From: Acidobacteriota bacterium
GTDB taxonomy: Bacteria > Acidobacteriota > Blastocatellia > RBC074
Direction: 5' to 3'
Assembly (NCBI GenBank): GCA_033763255.1
Contig: JANRKX010000087.1
Span: 40,075-104,074, forward strand
Length of the DNA stretch: 64,000 nucleotides
Shown here: piece after piece, positions 3,259-29,131 of the stretch
Layout of the letters: every line of letters starts with the position of its first letter
Position numbering within the stretch: position 1 is the stretch's first letter
Notes under the pieces: generated by a model
The model's input: the letters and a program-made list of their open reading frames with translations, nothing else
Databases searched by the model: none
Told to the model about the DNA's origin: nothing
Position numbers and translations under genes: made by a program

Positions 3259-3433
3259 CGGGTTTGTACTCCATCCACAACGACGCTCACGATTCCTCCA
3301 ACATAAAAAACCTGCTTCTTTGCCGCGCCCGTCAGTAGATTGTGAGACTCGGCGATAACTTTTTCGCGCATACCGATTTATTACCAATCGGCGTGCCAAA
3401 TCGCCGTCAACCTGCACGGCGGCCATTCAATGC

Positions 3434-4433: not shown

Positions 4434-4790
4434 ATGAACAAGCTCGCTAGAAAAACCGTCTTTTCAGCGTTCGCCGCAATGGCGCTTACCTTTGCGGTTA
4501 TCACGATGACCAAACCATCGGAAGCTGCTTATTTCCAAAGCGCCAAATCACTCTTTGCACAGAAGTGTTCTGTCTGCCACGGCAACGACGGAACCGGCAA
4601 CACCGCCAAAGGCAAAGAACTAAAAGTTCGCAATTGGAAAACTGACCCGGAAGTCAAAAAGATGTCCGACGCCAAAATGGTGGAAATCACAATGAAGGGC
4701 AAAGGCAAAATGGAAGGTTACGAAAAAACTCTGGGCAAAGAAAAAGTCGAAATGCTTATTGCTTATAGCAAAACTCTGATGGGGAAATAA
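4434..4790 (+). CDS. monoheme class I c-type cytochrome, exported
   Basis: A signal peptide is followed by a single CSVCH heme site. An aaggag RBS is present. Confidence 0.8.
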   Translation: MNKLARKTVFSAFAAMALTFAVITMTKPSEAAYFQSAKSLFAQKCSVCHGNDGTGNTAKGKELKVRNWKTDPEVKKMSDAKMVEITMKGKGKMEGYEKTLGKEKVEMLIAYSKTLMGK

Positions 4791-4810
4791 CCGCTCAGAT
4801 GCAAATTTCA

Positions 4811-4860
4811 GCCGCAGATAAACGCTTGTCTGCGTTTATCTGCGGCTTCACTTTTTTTGT
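4811..4860 (+). terminator. intrinsic terminator-like hairpin inside the cytochrome operon
   Basis: The motif is GCCGCAGATAAACGC-ttgtct-GCGTTTATCTGCGGC followed by ttcacttttttt. A ggaga RBS and the next ATG follow immediately. Confidence 0.5.
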
Positions 4861-4873
4861 GGAGACTTCACTT

Positions 4874-5503
4874 ATGACGGGAACAACTACAATTTCGGTG
4901 GCTGTCATTCTATTCAGCGTGGTGTTGATTGCCTGGCTGACGTCTCGCCCGTCCATCACCGCCACTCGCGGCGGCAAGATGCTGGCGTTTGTCGCCTTGC
5001 TGATCTTTCCGCTGCTGGCCGGAGGCATGGGCGTCAACGAACACATTCAACATTCCAAGACCACCAACTTCTGCCTGTCCTGCCACGTGATGGAAGATTA
5101 CGGCAAAAGTTTGCGCGTGGACGACCGCAGCTACATTCCGGCAATTCACTTTCAAAACAATCTGGTTCCGCGCGACCAGGCCTGTTTCACCTGCCACACC
5201 GATTACACAATGTTCGGCGACACGACGGCCAAACTGCGCGGATTGAAACACGTGTACGCTTATTATCTGGGCAAACCGGCTGAACCGATCAAACTGTACA
5301 CGCCTTATAACAACCGCGAATGCCTGCATTGTCATTTGGGCGGACGCGGGTTTGAAGAATCAGAAGCCCACAGCAAGGACGCCGAACTGATGGCCCGGAT
5401 GAAAGCCAACAAGCTTGGCTGCACATCCAGCGGCTGCCACAACATCGTTCACAACATTCCTTCGCTAAAAGAAGCGACATTCTGGAAGGAGGCTGGCAAA
5501 TGA
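4874..5503 (+). CDS. NapC/NirT/NrfH-family membrane-anchored tetraheme cytochrome c (quinol dehydrogenase-like)
   Basis: An N-terminal TM anchor (TISVAVILFSVVLIAWL) is present. Heme sites are CLSCH, CFTCH and CLHCH, plus an unusual CTSSGCH (CX4CH). The start is taken at the ATG at 4874, which has a ggaga RBS. Confidence 0.8.
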   Translation: MTGTTTISVAVILFSVVLIAWLTSRPSITATRGGKMLAFVALLIFPLLAGGMGVNEHIQHSKTTNFCLSCHVMEDYGKSLRVDDRSYIPAIHFQNNLVPRDQACFTCHTDYTMFGDTTAKLRGLKHVYAYYLGKPAEPIKLYTPYNNRECLHCHLGGRGFEESEAHSKDAELMARMKANKLGCTSSGCHNIVHNIPSLKEATFWKEAGK

Positions 5504-5697
5504 ATTCGCAATCATCAAAAATCGAAAAACGGATCCGATTGTCCGGCTTGTTGTTGATAACCGGGTTGCTGGTGGAACTGGTCAGTTTGTACTGGTCGCA
5601 TCCGACAGCTTTTTTGTTCTTCCTGCTGCTGGGCGGAGTGCTGCTGGCGGCGGGAATTGTGATTTACCTGCTCTCGCTGGTTTCTGCCGAAAGCTGA
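5500..5697 (+). CDS. small membrane protein (two TM helices), translationally coupled to the tetraheme gene
   Basis: Its ATG overlaps the upstream TGA (ATGA). The 65-aa product has two hydrophobic helices. Confidence 0.45.
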   Translation: MNSQSSKIEKRIRLSGLLLITGLLVELVSLYWSHPTAFLFFLLLGGVLLAAGIVIYLLSLVSAES

Positions 5698-5807
5698 ATC
5701 CTTGCAGTACGGGGAATGTGAGCGACCTGAGTCTTTCTGAAAGCATACTTCAAGCAAAACTCAGGTCGTGCATACGCCTCGTTTCACATTGAATCGGATT
5801 TATGCTT

Positions 5808-5845
5808 CGGATTGATTCTTTGGATTGATTCTTTGGATTGATGCT
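5808..5845. repeat. 13-bp tandem repeat, about 3 copies (GGATTGATTCTTT)
   Basis: The units are cggattgattctt, tggattgattctt and tggattgatgct, seen directly in the sequence. Confidence 0.5.
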
Positions 5846-5995
5846 GTCGCAGTTGATCCGGCAATGAAATGAGTCCCAACCGACCGGGACGAAGAAACTG
5901 TCAAACGCTTTACTTGATCTGCCATCGCGTAACATCAGTTACTAGATCGCTTTTCATTGGCGTGTCTGGATTATCAGGCGCTATTGAACTGTAAA

Positions 5996-6026
5996 TGTGG
6001 GGCAATTTTCCAAATTGTCCCACACA
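5996..6026. promoter_or_regulatory. dyad-symmetric element, candidate enhancer-binding-protein site (UAS) for the downstream sigma54 promoter
   Basis: The motif is TGTGGGGCAATT-ttccaa-ATTGTCCCACA, with 11-bp arms and one mismatch. It lies about 170 bp upstream of the -24/-12 element. Confidence 0.35.
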
Positions 6027-6183
6027 CCAAAGTGAAAACTGATCTAAATACCAAATCCTAATTCCAGAATCCTCAAACAACCTTCTCGTCTGCCAGCGGA
6101 ATTTTCCCAGCCGACACAATGCTCACCGGTGAAAATCACCCAAACATTTCCTCAATATCACCAACTATCAACAAGATAGCTGG

Positions 6184-6199
6184 TGGCACGCATGTTGCC
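6184..6199 (+). promoter_or_regulatory. sigma54 (RpoN) -24/-12 promoter
   Basis: TGGCACG-catg-TTGCC matches the TGGCACG-N4-TTGCW consensus exactly. It lies about 70 bp upstream of the hsp20 ATG. Confidence 0.6.
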
Positions 6200-6266
6200 A
6201 ATTTTGTTCTCGGCTGGAGATTCACTGGAAGGAAAACAATCTCGAACGCAGTATGGAGGTACTGAG

Positions 6267-6785
6267 ATGAAAGCCCAACAAGCATTGGAAACTCAACCGG
6301 CAGAGAAACCGATCTTTGTCGAAGCAGAAAAATTGATCAACCGCATGGAAGAATTGACGAAAAACGTTGCTCATCGCGCTTATGAATTTTTTGAAGAGCG
6401 TGGCCGCCGGTTCGGCAATGAACTGGAAGATTGGTTCCGCGCCGAGTCCGAATTGATGCGCTACGTGCCAACGACATTGAAAGAAGGTGATCAGCAATTC
6501 ACTTTTCAAGCCGAAGTCCCAGGCTTCAAAGCCGAAGAAATCAAAATCAGCGCCGAACCGAAAATGCTGATTATCGAAGGCGAATCAGAACAGAGCACCG
6601 AAGAAAAATCCGACAAGGTCGTGTTCAGCGAACGACGCACAAATCATTTTTGCCGCTCGTTCAGTTTGCCCGCTGAAATTGATCCTGCCAAAGTGACCGC
6701 CAATCTGAAAAACGGATTGCTGGAAATCATTTTGCCGAAAGTGCCGGTTCGCCAGCCGGTCGGCGTGGAAATCAAAACCGTGTAA
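6267..6785 (+). CDS. small heat-shock protein (Hsp20/alpha-crystallin) with an N-terminal DUF2934-like segment
   Basis: The C-terminal alpha-crystallin domain includes ...GLLEIILPK. The N-terminal [26 protein letters not shown] matches the DUF2934 consensus. The start at 6267 has a ggagg RBS. The upstream ATG at 6183 would overlap the promoter. Confidence 0.85.
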
Positions 6786-6839
6786 TGCAGATTCGGGTTT
6801 CGATGTCTGCTCCTTTGTTTTTGATAGGAGGTGAAAATC

Positions 6840-7529
6840 ATGACTTACAAATCAGACCAGGAACTGCAAAGCGAGGTGATGTTCCAGCTTGGGTGGGATT
6901 CGCGCATCAAACAAACCGAAGTCGGCGTGACGGCTCATAATGGAATCATCACTTTAACCGGCAAGGTGGGCAGTTACGCGAAAAAGCTGGCGGCTCAGCA
7001 GGCGGCGCATCGCGTCAAAGGAGTGCTGGACGTGGCCAACGACATCGAAGTTCACATCCCTGGCAGTCTGTCGCGCACCGACGAAGAAATCGCTCAGGCG
7101 GTTCGCCACGCCCTGGATTGGAACGTGCTGGTTCCGGCGGAACAGATTCACTCGACTGTGTCGAACGGTTGGGTGACGTTGGAAGGCAACGTCGAATACT
7201 ACCGCGAACGCACCGACGCCGAACGCGCTGTTTCCCATCTACCCGGAGTTCGCGGCTTGACGAACAAGATTCTGGTTTGTCAGTCGGTCGAACCCGAACG
7301 TGTCAAATTCCTGATTGAAGACGTTCTGGAACGTCGCGCCGACCGTGAAGCCGACCGCATACGAGTCAACGTCACCGATGGCGAAGTGATTCTGACCGGA
7401 GCAGTCAATTCGTGGGAAGAAAAGAAAGCAATCTTAGGCGCGGTCAGTCACACTCCGGGCGTCAAAGGCGTTCAGGATCATTTGTTCATTGATCCGTATC
7501 ACATGCGATTCGACGTGGCTTACGCATAA
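6840..7529 (+). CDS. BON-domain (OsmY-like) protein with three BON repeats
   Basis: There are three repeats of the type ...V.V..G.VTL.G.V......A...A....GV..V.N.I.V. The start ATG at 6840 has a ggagg RBS. Confidence 0.8.
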   Translation: MTYKSDQELQSEVMFQLGWDSRIKQTEVGVTAHNGIITLTGKVGSYAKKLAAQQAAHRVKGVLDVANDIEVHIPGSLSRTDEEIAQAVRHALDWNVLVPAEQIHSTVSNGWVTLEGNVEYYRERTDAERAVSHLPGVRGLTNKILVCQSVEPERVKFLIEDVLERRADREADRIRVNVTDGEVILTGAVNSWEEKKAILGAVSHTPGVKGVQDHLFIDPYHMRFDVAYA

Positions 7530-7563: not shown

Positions 7564-7606
7564 AAGCGCAGCGGTTTTTCTCGATGAGCCGCTGCGCCTT
7601 TTTTTG
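7564..7606 (+). terminator. rho-independent terminator ending the hsp20-BON unit
   Basis: The motif is AAGCGCAGCGG-N-CCGCTGCGCC followed by tttttttg. Confidence 0.65.
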
Positions 7607-7624
7607 TGAAGCGGGAGAATAAGC

Positions 7625-28923: not shown

Positions 28924-29131
28924 CGGCTCAGCCTCCTCGCCGCGTTAGCGGCGTTTGAATTTAGCCGTGGTTTTCAAACCACGGTAAGAGGCAGTATTCC
29001 TTCCTCGTCGCGTCAGCGACGGTTGAATTCAGTCGTCGCTAACGCGACGAGAAGATAATTTCACCACTACCCGGCGTTGAAACGCCGGGCTAATATCAGC
29101 CGCCGCTACGGCGGCGAAGAACAGGCTGAGC
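28924..29131. repeat. cluster of about six GC-rich stem-loops with a 32-bp imperfect direct repeat, separating the two AcnX subunit genes
   Basis: Unit 1 (28936-28967) and unit 2 (29004-29035) are about 80% identical. Hairpins include cgccgc-gtta-gcggcg, ccgtggtt-ttca-aaccacgg, cgtcgc-gtca-gcgacg and cccggcgtt-ga-aacgccggg. The flanking ggctcagcc/ggctgagcc can pair. Confidence 0.5.

What the first reader, a model, noticed from the sequence alone, without database searches (positions are those of the whole stretch)
5996..7529. Sigma54 promoter with an upstream dyad driving a DUF2934-Hsp20 fusion and a triple-BON protein
TGGCACG-N4-TTGCC matches the RpoN -24/-12 consensus exactly. It lies about 70 bp upstream of the hsp20 start. 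A 31-bp dyad (TGTGGGGCAATT-N6-AATTGTCCCACA) lies about 170 bp further upstream, at the distance expected for an enhancer-binding-protein UAS. The Hsp20 carries an N-terminal DUF2934-like segment ([26 protein letters not shown]). An OsmY-like BON protein follows 54 bp later, so the two form a stress dicistron. No bEBP gene is encoded nearby.
Basis: partly seen in the sequence, partly recalled or inferred. Interest (0 to 1): 0.5.

Follow-up and report, generated by a model that had tools for sequence, protein, structure and literature searches.

The report
Conserved sigma-54 promoter for stress operon

Summary
The sequence features exist as described, with small corrections. The dyad is 29 bp (13-nt arms, 3-nt spacer, 12/13 paired), not 31 bp. 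The promoter matches the consensus at 15 of 16 positions.

The sigma-54 promoter (6184-6199) is not significant by count alone: 1 match against 0.37 expected. However, it sits 70-101 nt upstream of the orthologous DUF2934-Hsp20 gene in nearly all of about 40 Acidobacteriota loci, while the flanking sequence has diverged.

The dyad (5996-6024) is a non-random palindrome. It occurs only in the window and one 97%-identical relative, upstream of the point where homology among 14 related promoters begins.

Two boxes are conserved instead: AGCGGAATTTTCCCAG (6095-6110) and CGGTGAAAATCACCCA (6127-6142), centred near -106 and -74. Similar boxes precede sigma-54 promoters of hsp20, universal-stress, BON, histidine-kinase and response-regulator genes in sister lineages. 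They are always in helical phase (Rayleigh p about 1e-10).

In those lineages hsp20 lies beside a REC-AAA+-HTH activator with a GAFTDA motif, 41% identical to E. coli AtoC. A matrix built from the boxes ranks the two verified AtoC sites top in the ato intergenic region.

No activator gene lies in the 64-kb window. Verdict: a new member of a known kind, of moderate interest.

The parts
5996..6024 (.). 29-bp palindrome (13-nt arms, TCC spacer, 12/13). It is lineage-specific and its function is unresolved; it may be a distal auxiliary site.
   Evidence: one of 4 such palindromes in 64 kb, against 0-1 in shuffles; found only in the window and L001, where the loop is flipped (TCC to GGA) and the arms pair perfectly; the minus-strand 16-mer TTTGGAAAATTGCCCC scores 8.1 bits and is centred at -202.
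6095..6110 (+). Upstream activator box 1, AGCGGAATTTTCCCAG, centred about -106 from the predicted start.
   Evidence: Conserved island in alignment A2 of 14 clade-A promoters. It scores 8.3 bits with a matrix trained only on other clades, rank 91 of 127,970 positions.
6127..6142 (+). Upstream activator box 2, CGGTGAAAATCACCCA (palindromic GGTGA-N3-TCACC), centred about -74.
   Evidence: Most strongly conserved island in A2. It scores 9.2 bits, rank 53 of 127,970. It lies 32 nt, about 3 helical turns, from box 1.
6166..6178 (+). IHF-like sequence TATCAACAAGATA, one mismatch to WATCAANNNNTTR, just upstream of the -24 element.
   Evidence: A TTTTCAA..ATAG island is conserved in part of clade A only. 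This element is weak and inferred.
6184..6199 (+). Sigma-54 (-24/-12) promoter TGGCACGCATGTTGCC. The predicted transcription start is near 6209-6211.
   Evidence: Searches give the match. Searches show conservation 70-101 nt upstream of the ATG in about 40 loci. T131, G132, G133, A135, T142, T143, G144 and C145 are invariant in A2.
6267..6785 (+). DUF2934-Hsp20 fusion gene, 172 aa. DUF2934 is residues 31-63 and the alpha-crystallin domain is residues 72-162. The C-terminal tail contains V-E-I.
   Evidence: Pfam. All 120 listed homologues carry both domains. The AlphaFold model has pLDDT 83.6, with helices 20-44 and 52-63 followed by a beta-sandwich. The best Foldseek matches are small heat-shock proteins.
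6840..7529 (+). Triple-BON protein gene, 229 aa. No N-terminal signal sequence is visible.
   Evidence: Pfam BON x3. It scores below the OsmY cut-off. It lies downstream of hsp20 in all clade-A loci. In L043 it is transcribed divergently from its own sigma-54 promoter.
7566..7607 (+). Intrinsic terminator closing the hsp20-BON unit.
   Evidence: 12-pair stem with 8 G-C pairs, followed by CTTTTTTTGT.

Best explanation
hsp20 (a DUF2934-Hsp20 fusion) and the triple-BON gene form a two-gene operon. It is transcribed by sigma-54 RNA polymerase from the -24/-12 promoter at 6184-6199 and ends at the terminator at 7566-7597. Open-complex formation is driven by an NtrC/AtoC-type response-regulator activator (REC, AAA+ and Fis-type HTH domains, with a GAFTDA loop). 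This activator binds two 16-bp boxes centred at about -106 (6095-6110) and -74 (6127-6142), three helical turns apart and on the same DNA face as the promoter. It reaches the polymerase by DNA looping, possibly aided by an IHF-like bend site at 6166-6178. The activator and its soluble PAS histidine kinase are encoded elsewhere in this genome. In sister lineages they lie next to hsp20 and carry the same promoter-plus-box architecture, as do universal-stress-protein genes. The operon therefore looks like one arm of a conserved sigma-54 stress regulon in Blastocatellia-like Acidobacteriota. What is shown: the sequence elements, their conservation, their phasing and the gene linkage. What is inferred: sigma-54 dependence, the identity of the binding protein and the inducing signal. 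The palindrome at 5996-6024 is not part of the conserved module.
For: (1) Promoter conservation. TGGCAC-N5-TTGC, matching at least 9/11 with GG and GC fixed, lies 70-101 nt before the ATG in essentially all loci whose Hsp20 is at least about 47% identical to the window protein. That is about 40 loci from genomes and metagenomes, and the surrounding sequence is unalignable between clades.

(2) Alignment A2 of 14 clade-A promoters shows discrete conservation islands: box 1, box 2, a TTTTCAA island, the -24/-12 element, a TGGAAGG island in the leader and the Shine-Dalgarno sequence. Nothing is conserved upstream of box 1, although the upstream neighbour gene differs between loci (ABC ATPase, DUF2064, cytochromes).

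(3) In clade B, hsp20 is flanked by a divergent tandem-USP gene and a downstream REC-Sigma54_activat-HTH_8 regulator, with a PAS-HisKA kinase nearby. Each gene has its own sigma-54 promoter and 2-3 boxes of the type TGCGGAAAAATCCCCA.

(4) The same architecture appears at regulator-kinase loci without hsp20 (L103-L105). L104 has GAGCAATTTTCCGCAG and GGTGAAGCTTCCCCAA, close to the window's two boxes. It also appears in a complete genome, CP065005.1, where hsp20, two usp operons and the GAFTDA regulator share one island.

(5) Box centres fall at -74, -84, -96, -106 and -116 across 18 non-orthologous promoters. The Rayleigh p is about 1e-10 at a period of 10.5-11 nt, with no signal at 8, 9 or 13 nt.

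(6) The regulator is 41% identical to E. coli AtoC over its full length, including the HTH. A matrix built only from the acidobacterial boxes ranks the two experimentally verified AtoC sites first and second in the ato intergenic region, at 13.9 and 11.7 bits (sites from PMC3118216).

(7) GAFTDA is a naturally occurring variant listed among those that would keep activator function (PMC4641369). It is present in 118 of 120 family members.

(8) No sigma-70-like promoter was found on the + strand of the region.
Against: The window holds no bEBP and no recognisable rpoN, so neither partner is shown to exist in this genome. The regulator of the same assembly (the Hsp20 is MDX2043041.1) was not found among the nine regulator hits whose cluster records were examined.

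The cross-clade matrix carries little information. The window has about 100 hits of at least 8 bits against about 46 in shuffles, and the two boxes score only 8.3 and 9.2 bits. The link between clade-A boxes and the clade-B regulator therefore rests on resemblance, position and phasing, not on a decisive score.

The orthologous promoters are not statistically independent. No expression data or transcription start is available. The IHF-like site is weak and is absent from several clade-A members.
Confidence: 0.7

Rival explanations
1. One reading: the 29-bp palindrome at 5996-6024 is the enhancer (UAS) where the activator binds, about 200 nt upstream of the start.
For: It is a genuine non-random palindrome. 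It lies at a distance compatible with enhancers. Its minus strand contains a box-like 16-mer of 8.1 bits, similar in score to box 1, centred at -202, which is in helical phase with the other boxes. Between the window and L001 the arms are kept while the 3-nt spacer is inverted, as expected if the symmetry matters. Some other loci also have distal boxes, at -136 to -240 in L011 and L047.
Against: It is absent from 13 other clade-A promoters that keep the sigma-54 element and both proximal boxes, and homology starts only at box 1. It has no other copy in the window or in any other fetched locus. Its arm spacing differs from the box architecture. Conservation with L001 is uninformative because the whole region is 97% identical.
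Confidence: 0.15
2. The -24/-12 match is fortuitous or vestigial. The operon would then be driven by a sigma-70 or heat-shock-sigma promoter, and the conserved boxes would be operators of an unrelated repressor or activator.
For: One TGGCAC-N5-TTGC per 64 kb is within chance. Promoter consensus sequences of Acidobacteriota are poorly known, so the sigma-70 scan could miss a real promoter. No bEBP or rpoN was seen in the window.
Against: The element is invariant at the diagnostic positions in 14 clade-A loci and present in about 40 loci across clades, where everything around it has diverged. The boxes co-occur specifically with sigma-54-type promoters at fixed, helically phased distances. A bEBP gene carrying the same boxes is physically linked in sister lineages.
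Confidence: 0.08
3. Induction is mainly post-transcriptional: the roughly 58-nt leader acts as an RNA thermometer (ROSE or fourU type) masking the Shine-Dalgarno sequence, as in many hsp20 genes.
For: hsp20 genes of other bacteria often use such leaders. The leader has a conserved TGGAAGG island. In clade B a CTTTTTC at the 5' end could pair with GAGGAAAAG at the ribosome-binding site; this was read from the sequence and was not tested.
Against: No Rfam family reaches its gathering score in the region. RNAalifold finds no consensus pair in 14 clade-A leaders. The window leader folds no better than shuffles (z = 0.34).
Confidence: 0.05

Closest known systems
E. coli AtoS/AtoC with the sigma-54 atoDAEB promoter
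   Same: The regulator in sister loci has the same REC-AAA+-HTH_8 architecture and is 41% identical over its full length. AtoC and AtoS are the best NCBIfam models for the regulator and the kinase. The binding sites are of the same type: the verified AtoC sites TGCAGAAAATTGCGCA and TGCAGAAATTTGCACA score 13.9 and 11.7 bits with the acidobacterial box matrix (PMC3118216). Both use multiple sites upstream of a -24/-12 promoter.
   Different: The regulator scores below the AtoC equivalog cut-off (451 against 714 bits). It has GAFTDA instead of GAFTGA. The targets are stress genes (hsp20, BON, USP) rather than short-chain fatty-acid catabolism. The sites lie at -74 to -118 as separate phased boxes, not as one 40-bp inverted repeat, which in E. 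coli is listed at -184 to -144 (coordinates from PMC3118216). The kinase is a short PAS protein in which no membrane-spanning segment was noticed; this was not tested.
E. coli ibpB sigma-54 promoter
   Same: A small heat-shock protein gene under sigma-54 control. ibpB is used as a positive control for sigma-54 ChIP (PMC2831329, citing Kuczynska-Wisnik 2001).
   Different: ibpB also has a sigma-32 promoter and lies inside the ibpAB operon, and the text examined names no dedicated activator or box architecture. Here sigma-54 appears to be the only recognisable promoter, and the boxes and regulon partners are conserved.
Myxococcus xanthus HsfB/HsfA phosphorelay activating the heat-shock gene lonD
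   Same: An NtrC-like response regulator phosphorylated by a histidine kinase directly activates a heat-shock gene (PMC9109919, citing Ueki and Inouye 2002).
   Different: The phylum and the targets differ (lonD, secondary metabolites, pilY1). No sequence comparison with HsfA was made here, so this is an analogy only.
Mycobacterium DosS/DosR dormancy regulon (from my own knowledge, not tested here)
   Same: The gene content is similar: an alpha-crystallin small heat-shock protein plus several universal stress proteins, and an autoregulated two-component system with a soluble sensor domain.
   Different: DosR is a LuxR/NarL-type regulator working with sigma-70-type polymerase. Here the regulator is a sigma-54 activator, and no signal (hypoxia, NO or other) is known.
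OsmY (periplasmic BON protein of E. coli)
   Same: Repeated BON domains; stress-associated.
   Different: The window protein has three BON domains, not two. No signal peptide is visible at the N-terminus (MTYKSDQELQ...). It scores 56.8 bits against a cut-off of 174. It is probably cytoplasmic.

Membership tests
Sigma-54 (RpoN) dependent promoter | GG and GC dinucleotides separated by exactly 10 nt within TGGCAC-N5-TTGCW | tested here: met
   6184-6199 is TGGCACGCATGTTGCC, matching 15/16.
Sigma-54 (RpoN) dependent promoter | Intergenic position, same strand and a suitable distance upstream of a gene, conserved in orthologues | tested here: met
   The element ends 68 nt before the ATG. It is present at -70 to -101 in about 40 loci, with the diagnostic positions invariant in A2.
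Sigma-54 (RpoN) dependent promoter | rpoN present in the genome | not testable with these tools
   No RpoN-box peptide is found in the 64-kb window. The rest of the assembly could not be read.
Sigma-54 (RpoN) dependent promoter | Transcription start 11-13 nt downstream of the -12 GC, with rpoN and bEBP dependence | not testable with these tools
   This needs 5'-RACE or dRNA-seq and mutants.
bEBP upstream activator sequence (AtoC/NtrC type) | Two or more related, partly palindromic sites about 70-150 nt upstream, conserved and on one helical face | tested here: met
   The boxes at 6095-6110 and 6127-6142 are conserved. Their centres are at -106 and -74. Family-wide phasing gives a Rayleigh p of about 1e-10.
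bEBP upstream activator sequence (AtoC/NtrC type) | Sites match the specificity of an identified cognate activator | tested here: inconclusive
   A matrix from other clades scores the window boxes at 8.3 and 9.2 bits (top 0.1%), but about 100 window positions score at least 8. Verified E. coli AtoC sites score 13.9 and 11.7. No binding experiment exists.
bEBP upstream activator sequence (AtoC/NtrC type) | Cognate bEBP encoded in the same genome | not testable with these tools
   None lies in the window or within 10 kb on either side in clade-A relatives. It is present next to hsp20 in clade B and in CP065005.1.
NtrC-family response-regulator bEBP (the regulator in sister loci, L023:4684-6147) | REC, AAA+ sigma-54 interaction and Fis-type HTH domains | tested here: met
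   Pfam Response_reg 1e-24, Sigma54_activat 3e-69, HTH_8 2e-16.
NtrC-family response-regulator bEBP (the regulator in sister loci, L023:4684-6147) | GAFTGA sigma-54 contact loop | tested here: inconclusive
   The variant GAFTDA occurs in 118/120 members. It is listed as a tolerated natural variant and is present in DVU2106, to which that paper assigns a regulon (PMC4641369).
AtoC (NCBIfam equivalog NF008469) | Score above the curated equivalog cut-off | tested here: not met
   451 bits against a cut-off of 714. It is AtoC-like, not AtoC.
Small heat-shock protein (Hsp20/alpha-crystallin) | Alpha-crystallin beta-sandwich domain | tested here: met
   Pfam HSP20 E=7e-24. The model has pLDDT 83.6. 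The best Foldseek hits are MjHSP16.5, wheat HSP16.9 and Acr1.
Small heat-shock protein (Hsp20/alpha-crystallin) | C-terminal I/V-x-I/V anchoring motif | tested here: met
   ...PVGVEIKTV at the C-terminus. VE(I/V) is conserved in alignment A1.
OsmY | Two BON domains behind a Sec signal peptide; score above the equivalog cut-off | tested here: not met
   Three BON domains. The N-terminus MTYKSDQELQSEV has no hydrophobic leader. The score is 56.8 against 174 bits.
RNA thermometer (ROSE, fourU and similar) | Conserved leader structure pairing with the Shine-Dalgarno sequence | tested here: not met
   No Rfam hit. No consensus pair in 14 leaders. z = 0.34 against shuffles.

The most novel reading that the evidence does not exclude
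The hsp20-BON operon belongs to a phylum-specific, sigma-54-driven dormancy or low-oxygen/redox survival programme of Blastocatellia-type Acidobacteriota. In this reading an autoregulated soluble PAS kinase and a GAFTDA AtoC-like activator co-induce a DUF2934-tagged small heat-shock protein, cytoplasmic BON proteins, tandem universal stress proteins and associated genes (MgtC-like, PNPOx; a hemerythrin gene lies nearby in L023, and no promoter was examined for it). This would be a functional analogue of the mycobacterial DosR regulon built on a different transcription machinery. The palindrome at 5996-6024 would be a strain-specific extra enhancer site.
Probability: 0.25. Interest if true: 0.6.

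Novelty: new member of a known kind. Interest (0 to 1): 0.42.

Why it matters
Acidobacteriota are among the most abundant soil bacteria, yet their gene regulation is almost unstudied. This locus provides a clean, testable sigma-54 promoter with defined activator boxes and a named candidate regulator family. It also provides a candidate regulon (hsp20, BON, USP, kinase, regulator) that recurs across many uncultured lineages. That gives a concrete route to working out how these slow-growing organisms switch on stress or persistence functions. It also supplies a ready motif for regulon prediction in metagenome-assembled genomes. In addition, it links two domains of unknown or vague function, DUF2934 and cytoplasmic BON, to a defined stress response.

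Tried and rejected
(1) RNA thermometer in the leader. There is no Rfam hit, no consensus structure and no excess stability. Rejected for clade A.

(2) Dyad as a repeated element or regulon marker. It has no other copy in the window or in 107 loci except the near-identical L001.

(3) Dyad as a terminator. It is AT-rich in the inner stem, no T-run follows on either strand, and no gene ends there. Rejected.

(4) Regulon search inside the window with the box matrix. The top hits (63967, 20987) lie inside coding sequence, in what read as ATP synthase genes and an unnamed ORF, with no sigma-54 promoter. There is no second target in the window.

(5) Other sigma-54 promoters in the window. The only other 1-mismatch hit (3383-3398, minus strand) has GG instead of GC at -12.

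(6) bEBP near hsp20 in clade A. None lies within 10 kb on either side in two long contigs.

(7) Identifying the regulator of the same assembly through protein accessions. The Hsp20 is MDX2043041.1, but none of the nine regulator clusters checked carries a neighbouring accession.

(8) My first GAFTGA-only scan missed the linked regulator because the family has GAFTDA.

(9) The IHF site is only a weak, partly conserved match.

(10) Literature. There is no paper on DUF2934 function, and none links Acidobacteriota, sigma-54 and hsp20/BON/USP in the searchable library.
Full report
WHAT IS IN THE SEQUENCE

The window comes from an Acidobacteriota metagenome-assembled genome. The Hsp20 protein is identical to NCBI MDX2043041.1, 'MAG: Acidobacteriota bacterium'. 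An Acido-Lenti-1 RNA is present elsewhere in the window.

- The sigma-54-type element TGGCACGCATGTTGCC lies at 6184-6199.
- A GGAGG ribosome-binding site lies at 6255-6259.
- A 172-aa ORF at 6267-6785 carries Pfam DUF2934 (residues 31-63, E=7e-9) and HSP20 (residues 72-162, E=7e-24).
- After 54 nt, a 229-aa ORF at 6840-7529 carries three BON domains (E=3e-43).
- A strong intrinsic terminator lies at 7566-7597.

The dyad is really 29 bp: arms TGTGGGGCAATTT and AAATTGTCCCACA, a TCC spacer, and 12 of 13 positions paired.

The dyad is not a chance feature. Only four places in the window hold a palindrome of this quality, against 0-1 in ten shuffles. Two of the other three lie just outside ORF ends like terminators.

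By contrast, the bare core TGGCAC-N5-TTGC occurs once against 0.37 expected. The promoter claim therefore cannot rest on the match alone.

COMPARATIVE EVIDENCE FOR THE PROMOTER

The DUF2934-Hsp20 fusion is a family, mainly in Blastocatellia-like Acidobacteriota. The search returned 233 proteins, and all 120 listed carry both domains. I fetched 17 genomic and 80 metagenomic loci, plus longer contexts.

In essentially every locus whose Hsp20 is at least about 47% identical to the window protein, a TGGCAC-N5-TTGC element lies 70-101 nt upstream of the start codon. 'Match' here means at least 9 of 11 positions with GG and GC fixed, and this covers about 40 loci. More distant homologues (35-45% identity) mostly lack it.

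In a MAFFT alignment of 14 promoters of the window's own clade (A2), the -24 and -12 positions are invariant while most other columns are not. I regard the sigma-54 promoter as well supported (about 0.9).

A2 shows sharply bounded conservation islands:
- AGCGGAATTTTCCCAG (window 6095-6110);
- CGGTGAAAATCACCCA (6127-6142);
- a TTTTCAA..ATAG island (IHF-like TATCAACAAGATA at 6166-6178);
- the promoter;
- a TGGAAGG island in the leader;
- the ribosome-binding site.

Nothing upstream of the first box aligns. This fits the gene context. hsp20-BON followed by a convergent hydantoinase B gene is conserved in the clade. The upstream neighbour differs: an ABC ATPase, DUF2064, an MgtC-like protein, or cytochromes in the window. 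The conserved promoter module therefore starts at box 1.

The 400-nt stretch 5698-6095, including the dyad, is found only in the window and in L001, a 97%-identical relative. That comparison is too close to be informative. One detail stands out: in L001 the 3-nt spacer is inverted (TCC to GGA) and the arms pair perfectly. This suggests that the symmetry itself is maintained or that the hairpin flips.

A REGULON SIGNATURE AND A CANDIDATE ACTIVATOR

In a sister clade (Hsp20 52-57% identical; L022-L041), hsp20 sits between two genes. One is a divergently transcribed tandem universal-stress-protein gene. The other, downstream, encodes a 487-aa REC-Sigma54_activat-HTH_8 response regulator. A soluble PAS-HisKA kinase lies nearby.

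Each of these four genes has its own sigma-54 promoter, preceded by two or three boxes of the type TGCGGAAAAATCCCCA. In the divergent usp/hsp20 pair, the same two boxes lie at -84 and -116 from both promoters.

Regulator-kinase loci without hsp20 (L103-L105) show the same arrangement. L104 carries GAGCAATTTTCCGCAG and GGTGAAGCTTCCCCAA, very like the window's two boxes.

In the complete genome CP065005.1, one island holds three sigma-54 promoters with phased boxes, and hsp20, two usp operons, a hybrid PAS kinase and the regulator lie within about 8 kb. In L043 the BON gene is transcribed divergently from hsp20 from its own sigma-54 promoter. This supports functional coupling of the two window genes.

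Across 18 non-orthologous promoters, the box centres fall at -74, -84, -96, -106 and -116 relative to the predicted start. The phase concentration is R=0.79 and the Rayleigh p is about 1e-10 at 10.5-11 nt. There is no signal at 8, 9 or 13 nt. Face-of-helix dependence is typical of enhancer-binding proteins (established knowledge).

The regulator family almost always has GAFTDA in place of GAFTGA (118 of 120). This variant is listed as compatible with activation and occurs in Desulfovibrio DVU2106, to which that paper assigns a regulon (PMC4641369).

The regulator is closest to AtoC but falls below its equivalog cut-off. It is 41% identical to E. coli AtoC, including the HTH. A matrix trained only on acidobacterial boxes ranks the two experimentally verified AtoC sites first and second in the E. 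coli ato intergenic region (PMC3118216). This independent observation supports the idea that an AtoC-like protein binds the boxes.

LIMITS

The cross-clade matrix is weak. The window boxes score 8.3 and 9.2 bits, ranks 91 and 53 of 127,970 positions. The window has about 100 hits of at least 8 bits against about 46 in shuffles.

The dyad contains a 16-mer scoring 8.1 bits at -202, also in phase.

The window holds no bEBP and no rpoN, and I could not retrieve the regulator of the same assembly. No expression data exist. Which signal the PAS kinase senses is unknown.

WHAT THE PROTEINS ARE

The AlphaFold model is confident (pLDDT 83.6). Two helices (20-44 and 52-63) cover DUF2934, and a canonical alpha-crystallin sandwich follows. 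Its best structural matches are MjHSP16.5, wheat HSP16.9 and M. tuberculosis Acr1. The C-terminal tail keeps a V-E-I motif.

DUF2934 thus replaces the usually disordered N-terminal arm of small heat-shock proteins with a conserved helical hairpin. The invariant residues are R45, G46, G50, D55, W56 and F57. I found no literature on its function.

The BON protein has three BON domains and no signal sequence, and it scores far below the OsmY cut-off. It is not OsmY and is probably cytoplasmic.

ALTERNATIVES TESTED

An RNA thermometer is not supported for this clade. A sigma-70-type promoter was not found on the + strand, although acidobacterial promoters are poorly defined.

COMPARISON WITH KNOWN SYSTEMS AND NOVELTY

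Sigma-54 control of a small heat-shock gene is known for E. coli ibpB (PMC2831329). An NtrC-like regulator activating a heat-shock gene is known for Myxococcus HsfBA-lonD (PMC9109919).

The mechanism proposed here is therefore of a known kind. What is new is the regulon itself, together with its box motif and the AtoC-like GAFTDA regulator with a PAS kinase. It spans hsp20 with DUF2934, BON, USP, and an autoregulated regulator and kinase. It sits in an abundant, little-studied phylum, for which I found no description.

I rate it a new member of a known kind, with interest about 0.4. The gene content recalls the mycobacterial DosR dormancy regulon (alpha-crystallin plus USPs plus an autoregulated sensor system). 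If the acidobacterial system proved to be a sigma-54-based analogue, interest would be higher.

Noticed in passing
window 29070-29116 (+): Rfam Acido-Lenti-1 small RNA, 39.7 bits against a gathering score of 37. This is consistent with an acidobacterial origin of the window.
   Followed up: no
window 5796-5845; L001 2437-3004: Tandem 13-nt repeat GGATTGATTCTTT, three copies in the window and two in the 97%-identical relative L001. It is a copy-number-variable microsatellite-like tract in the long intergenic region upstream of the dyad.
   Followed up: partly
window 5996-6024 compared with L001: Between the two near-identical genomes the palindrome's 3-nt spacer is inverted (TCC to GGA), and one arm substitution makes the L001 copy perfect. 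This looks like a hairpin 'flip' rather than independent point changes.
   Followed up: partly
window 4812-4845: Perfect 14-nt-arm hairpin CCGCAGATAAACGC/GCGTTTATCTGCGG followed by a T-run. It lies just after the cytochrome c gene (4434-4790) and inside the first codons of the NapC/NirT-like ORF as listed (4799-5503). It is probably a terminator, so the real start of that ORF is likely further downstream.
   Followed up: no
L053, L055, L057, L058, L060, L061, L065, L067, L068, L070 and others, about -115 from the hsp20 ATG: Distant DUF2934-Hsp20 homologues (40-43% identity) lack the sigma-54 promoter. They share a different conserved 16-mer, CGGTTCCTGTGCCGCA, which suggests another regulatory scheme in that clade.
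   Followed up: no
L022/L023/L030 and related loci (e.g. L023 3700-4000): Divergent usp and hsp20 sigma-54 promoters share the same two boxes, placed symmetrically at -84 and -116 from both predicted starts. This looks like a bidirectional enhancer.
   Followed up: partly
window 6226-6235 and A2 columns about 203-212: A TGGAAGG(A/G)AAA island in the 5' leader is conserved across clade A, although no RNA structure is conserved. Its function is unknown; it could be a standby ribosome site or a protein-binding site.
   Followed up: partly
L108 (CP065005.1 4065243-4085767): A complete acidobacterial genome carries a compact 'stress island': usp-MgtC/DUF4010, hsp20, a hybrid PAS kinase, PNPOx, usp and the GAFTDA regulator. 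It has three sigma-54 promoters with phased boxes.
   Followed up: partly
L048, L049, L054, L044: Another subgroup has the sigma-54 promoter only about 45 nt from the hsp20 ATG. Its boxes are of a GCGAA(C/T)TTCGCGAATTCG(T/C)GAA type, repeated in front of a second nearby sigma-54 promoter. This may be a diverged version of the same regulon.
   Followed up: no
window 5733-5770: A 10-bp stem, CGACCTGAGT/ACTCAGGTCG, lies just after the 65-aa membrane-protein ORF (5500-5697). It is a possible terminator or processing hairpin and has no T-run.
   Followed up: no
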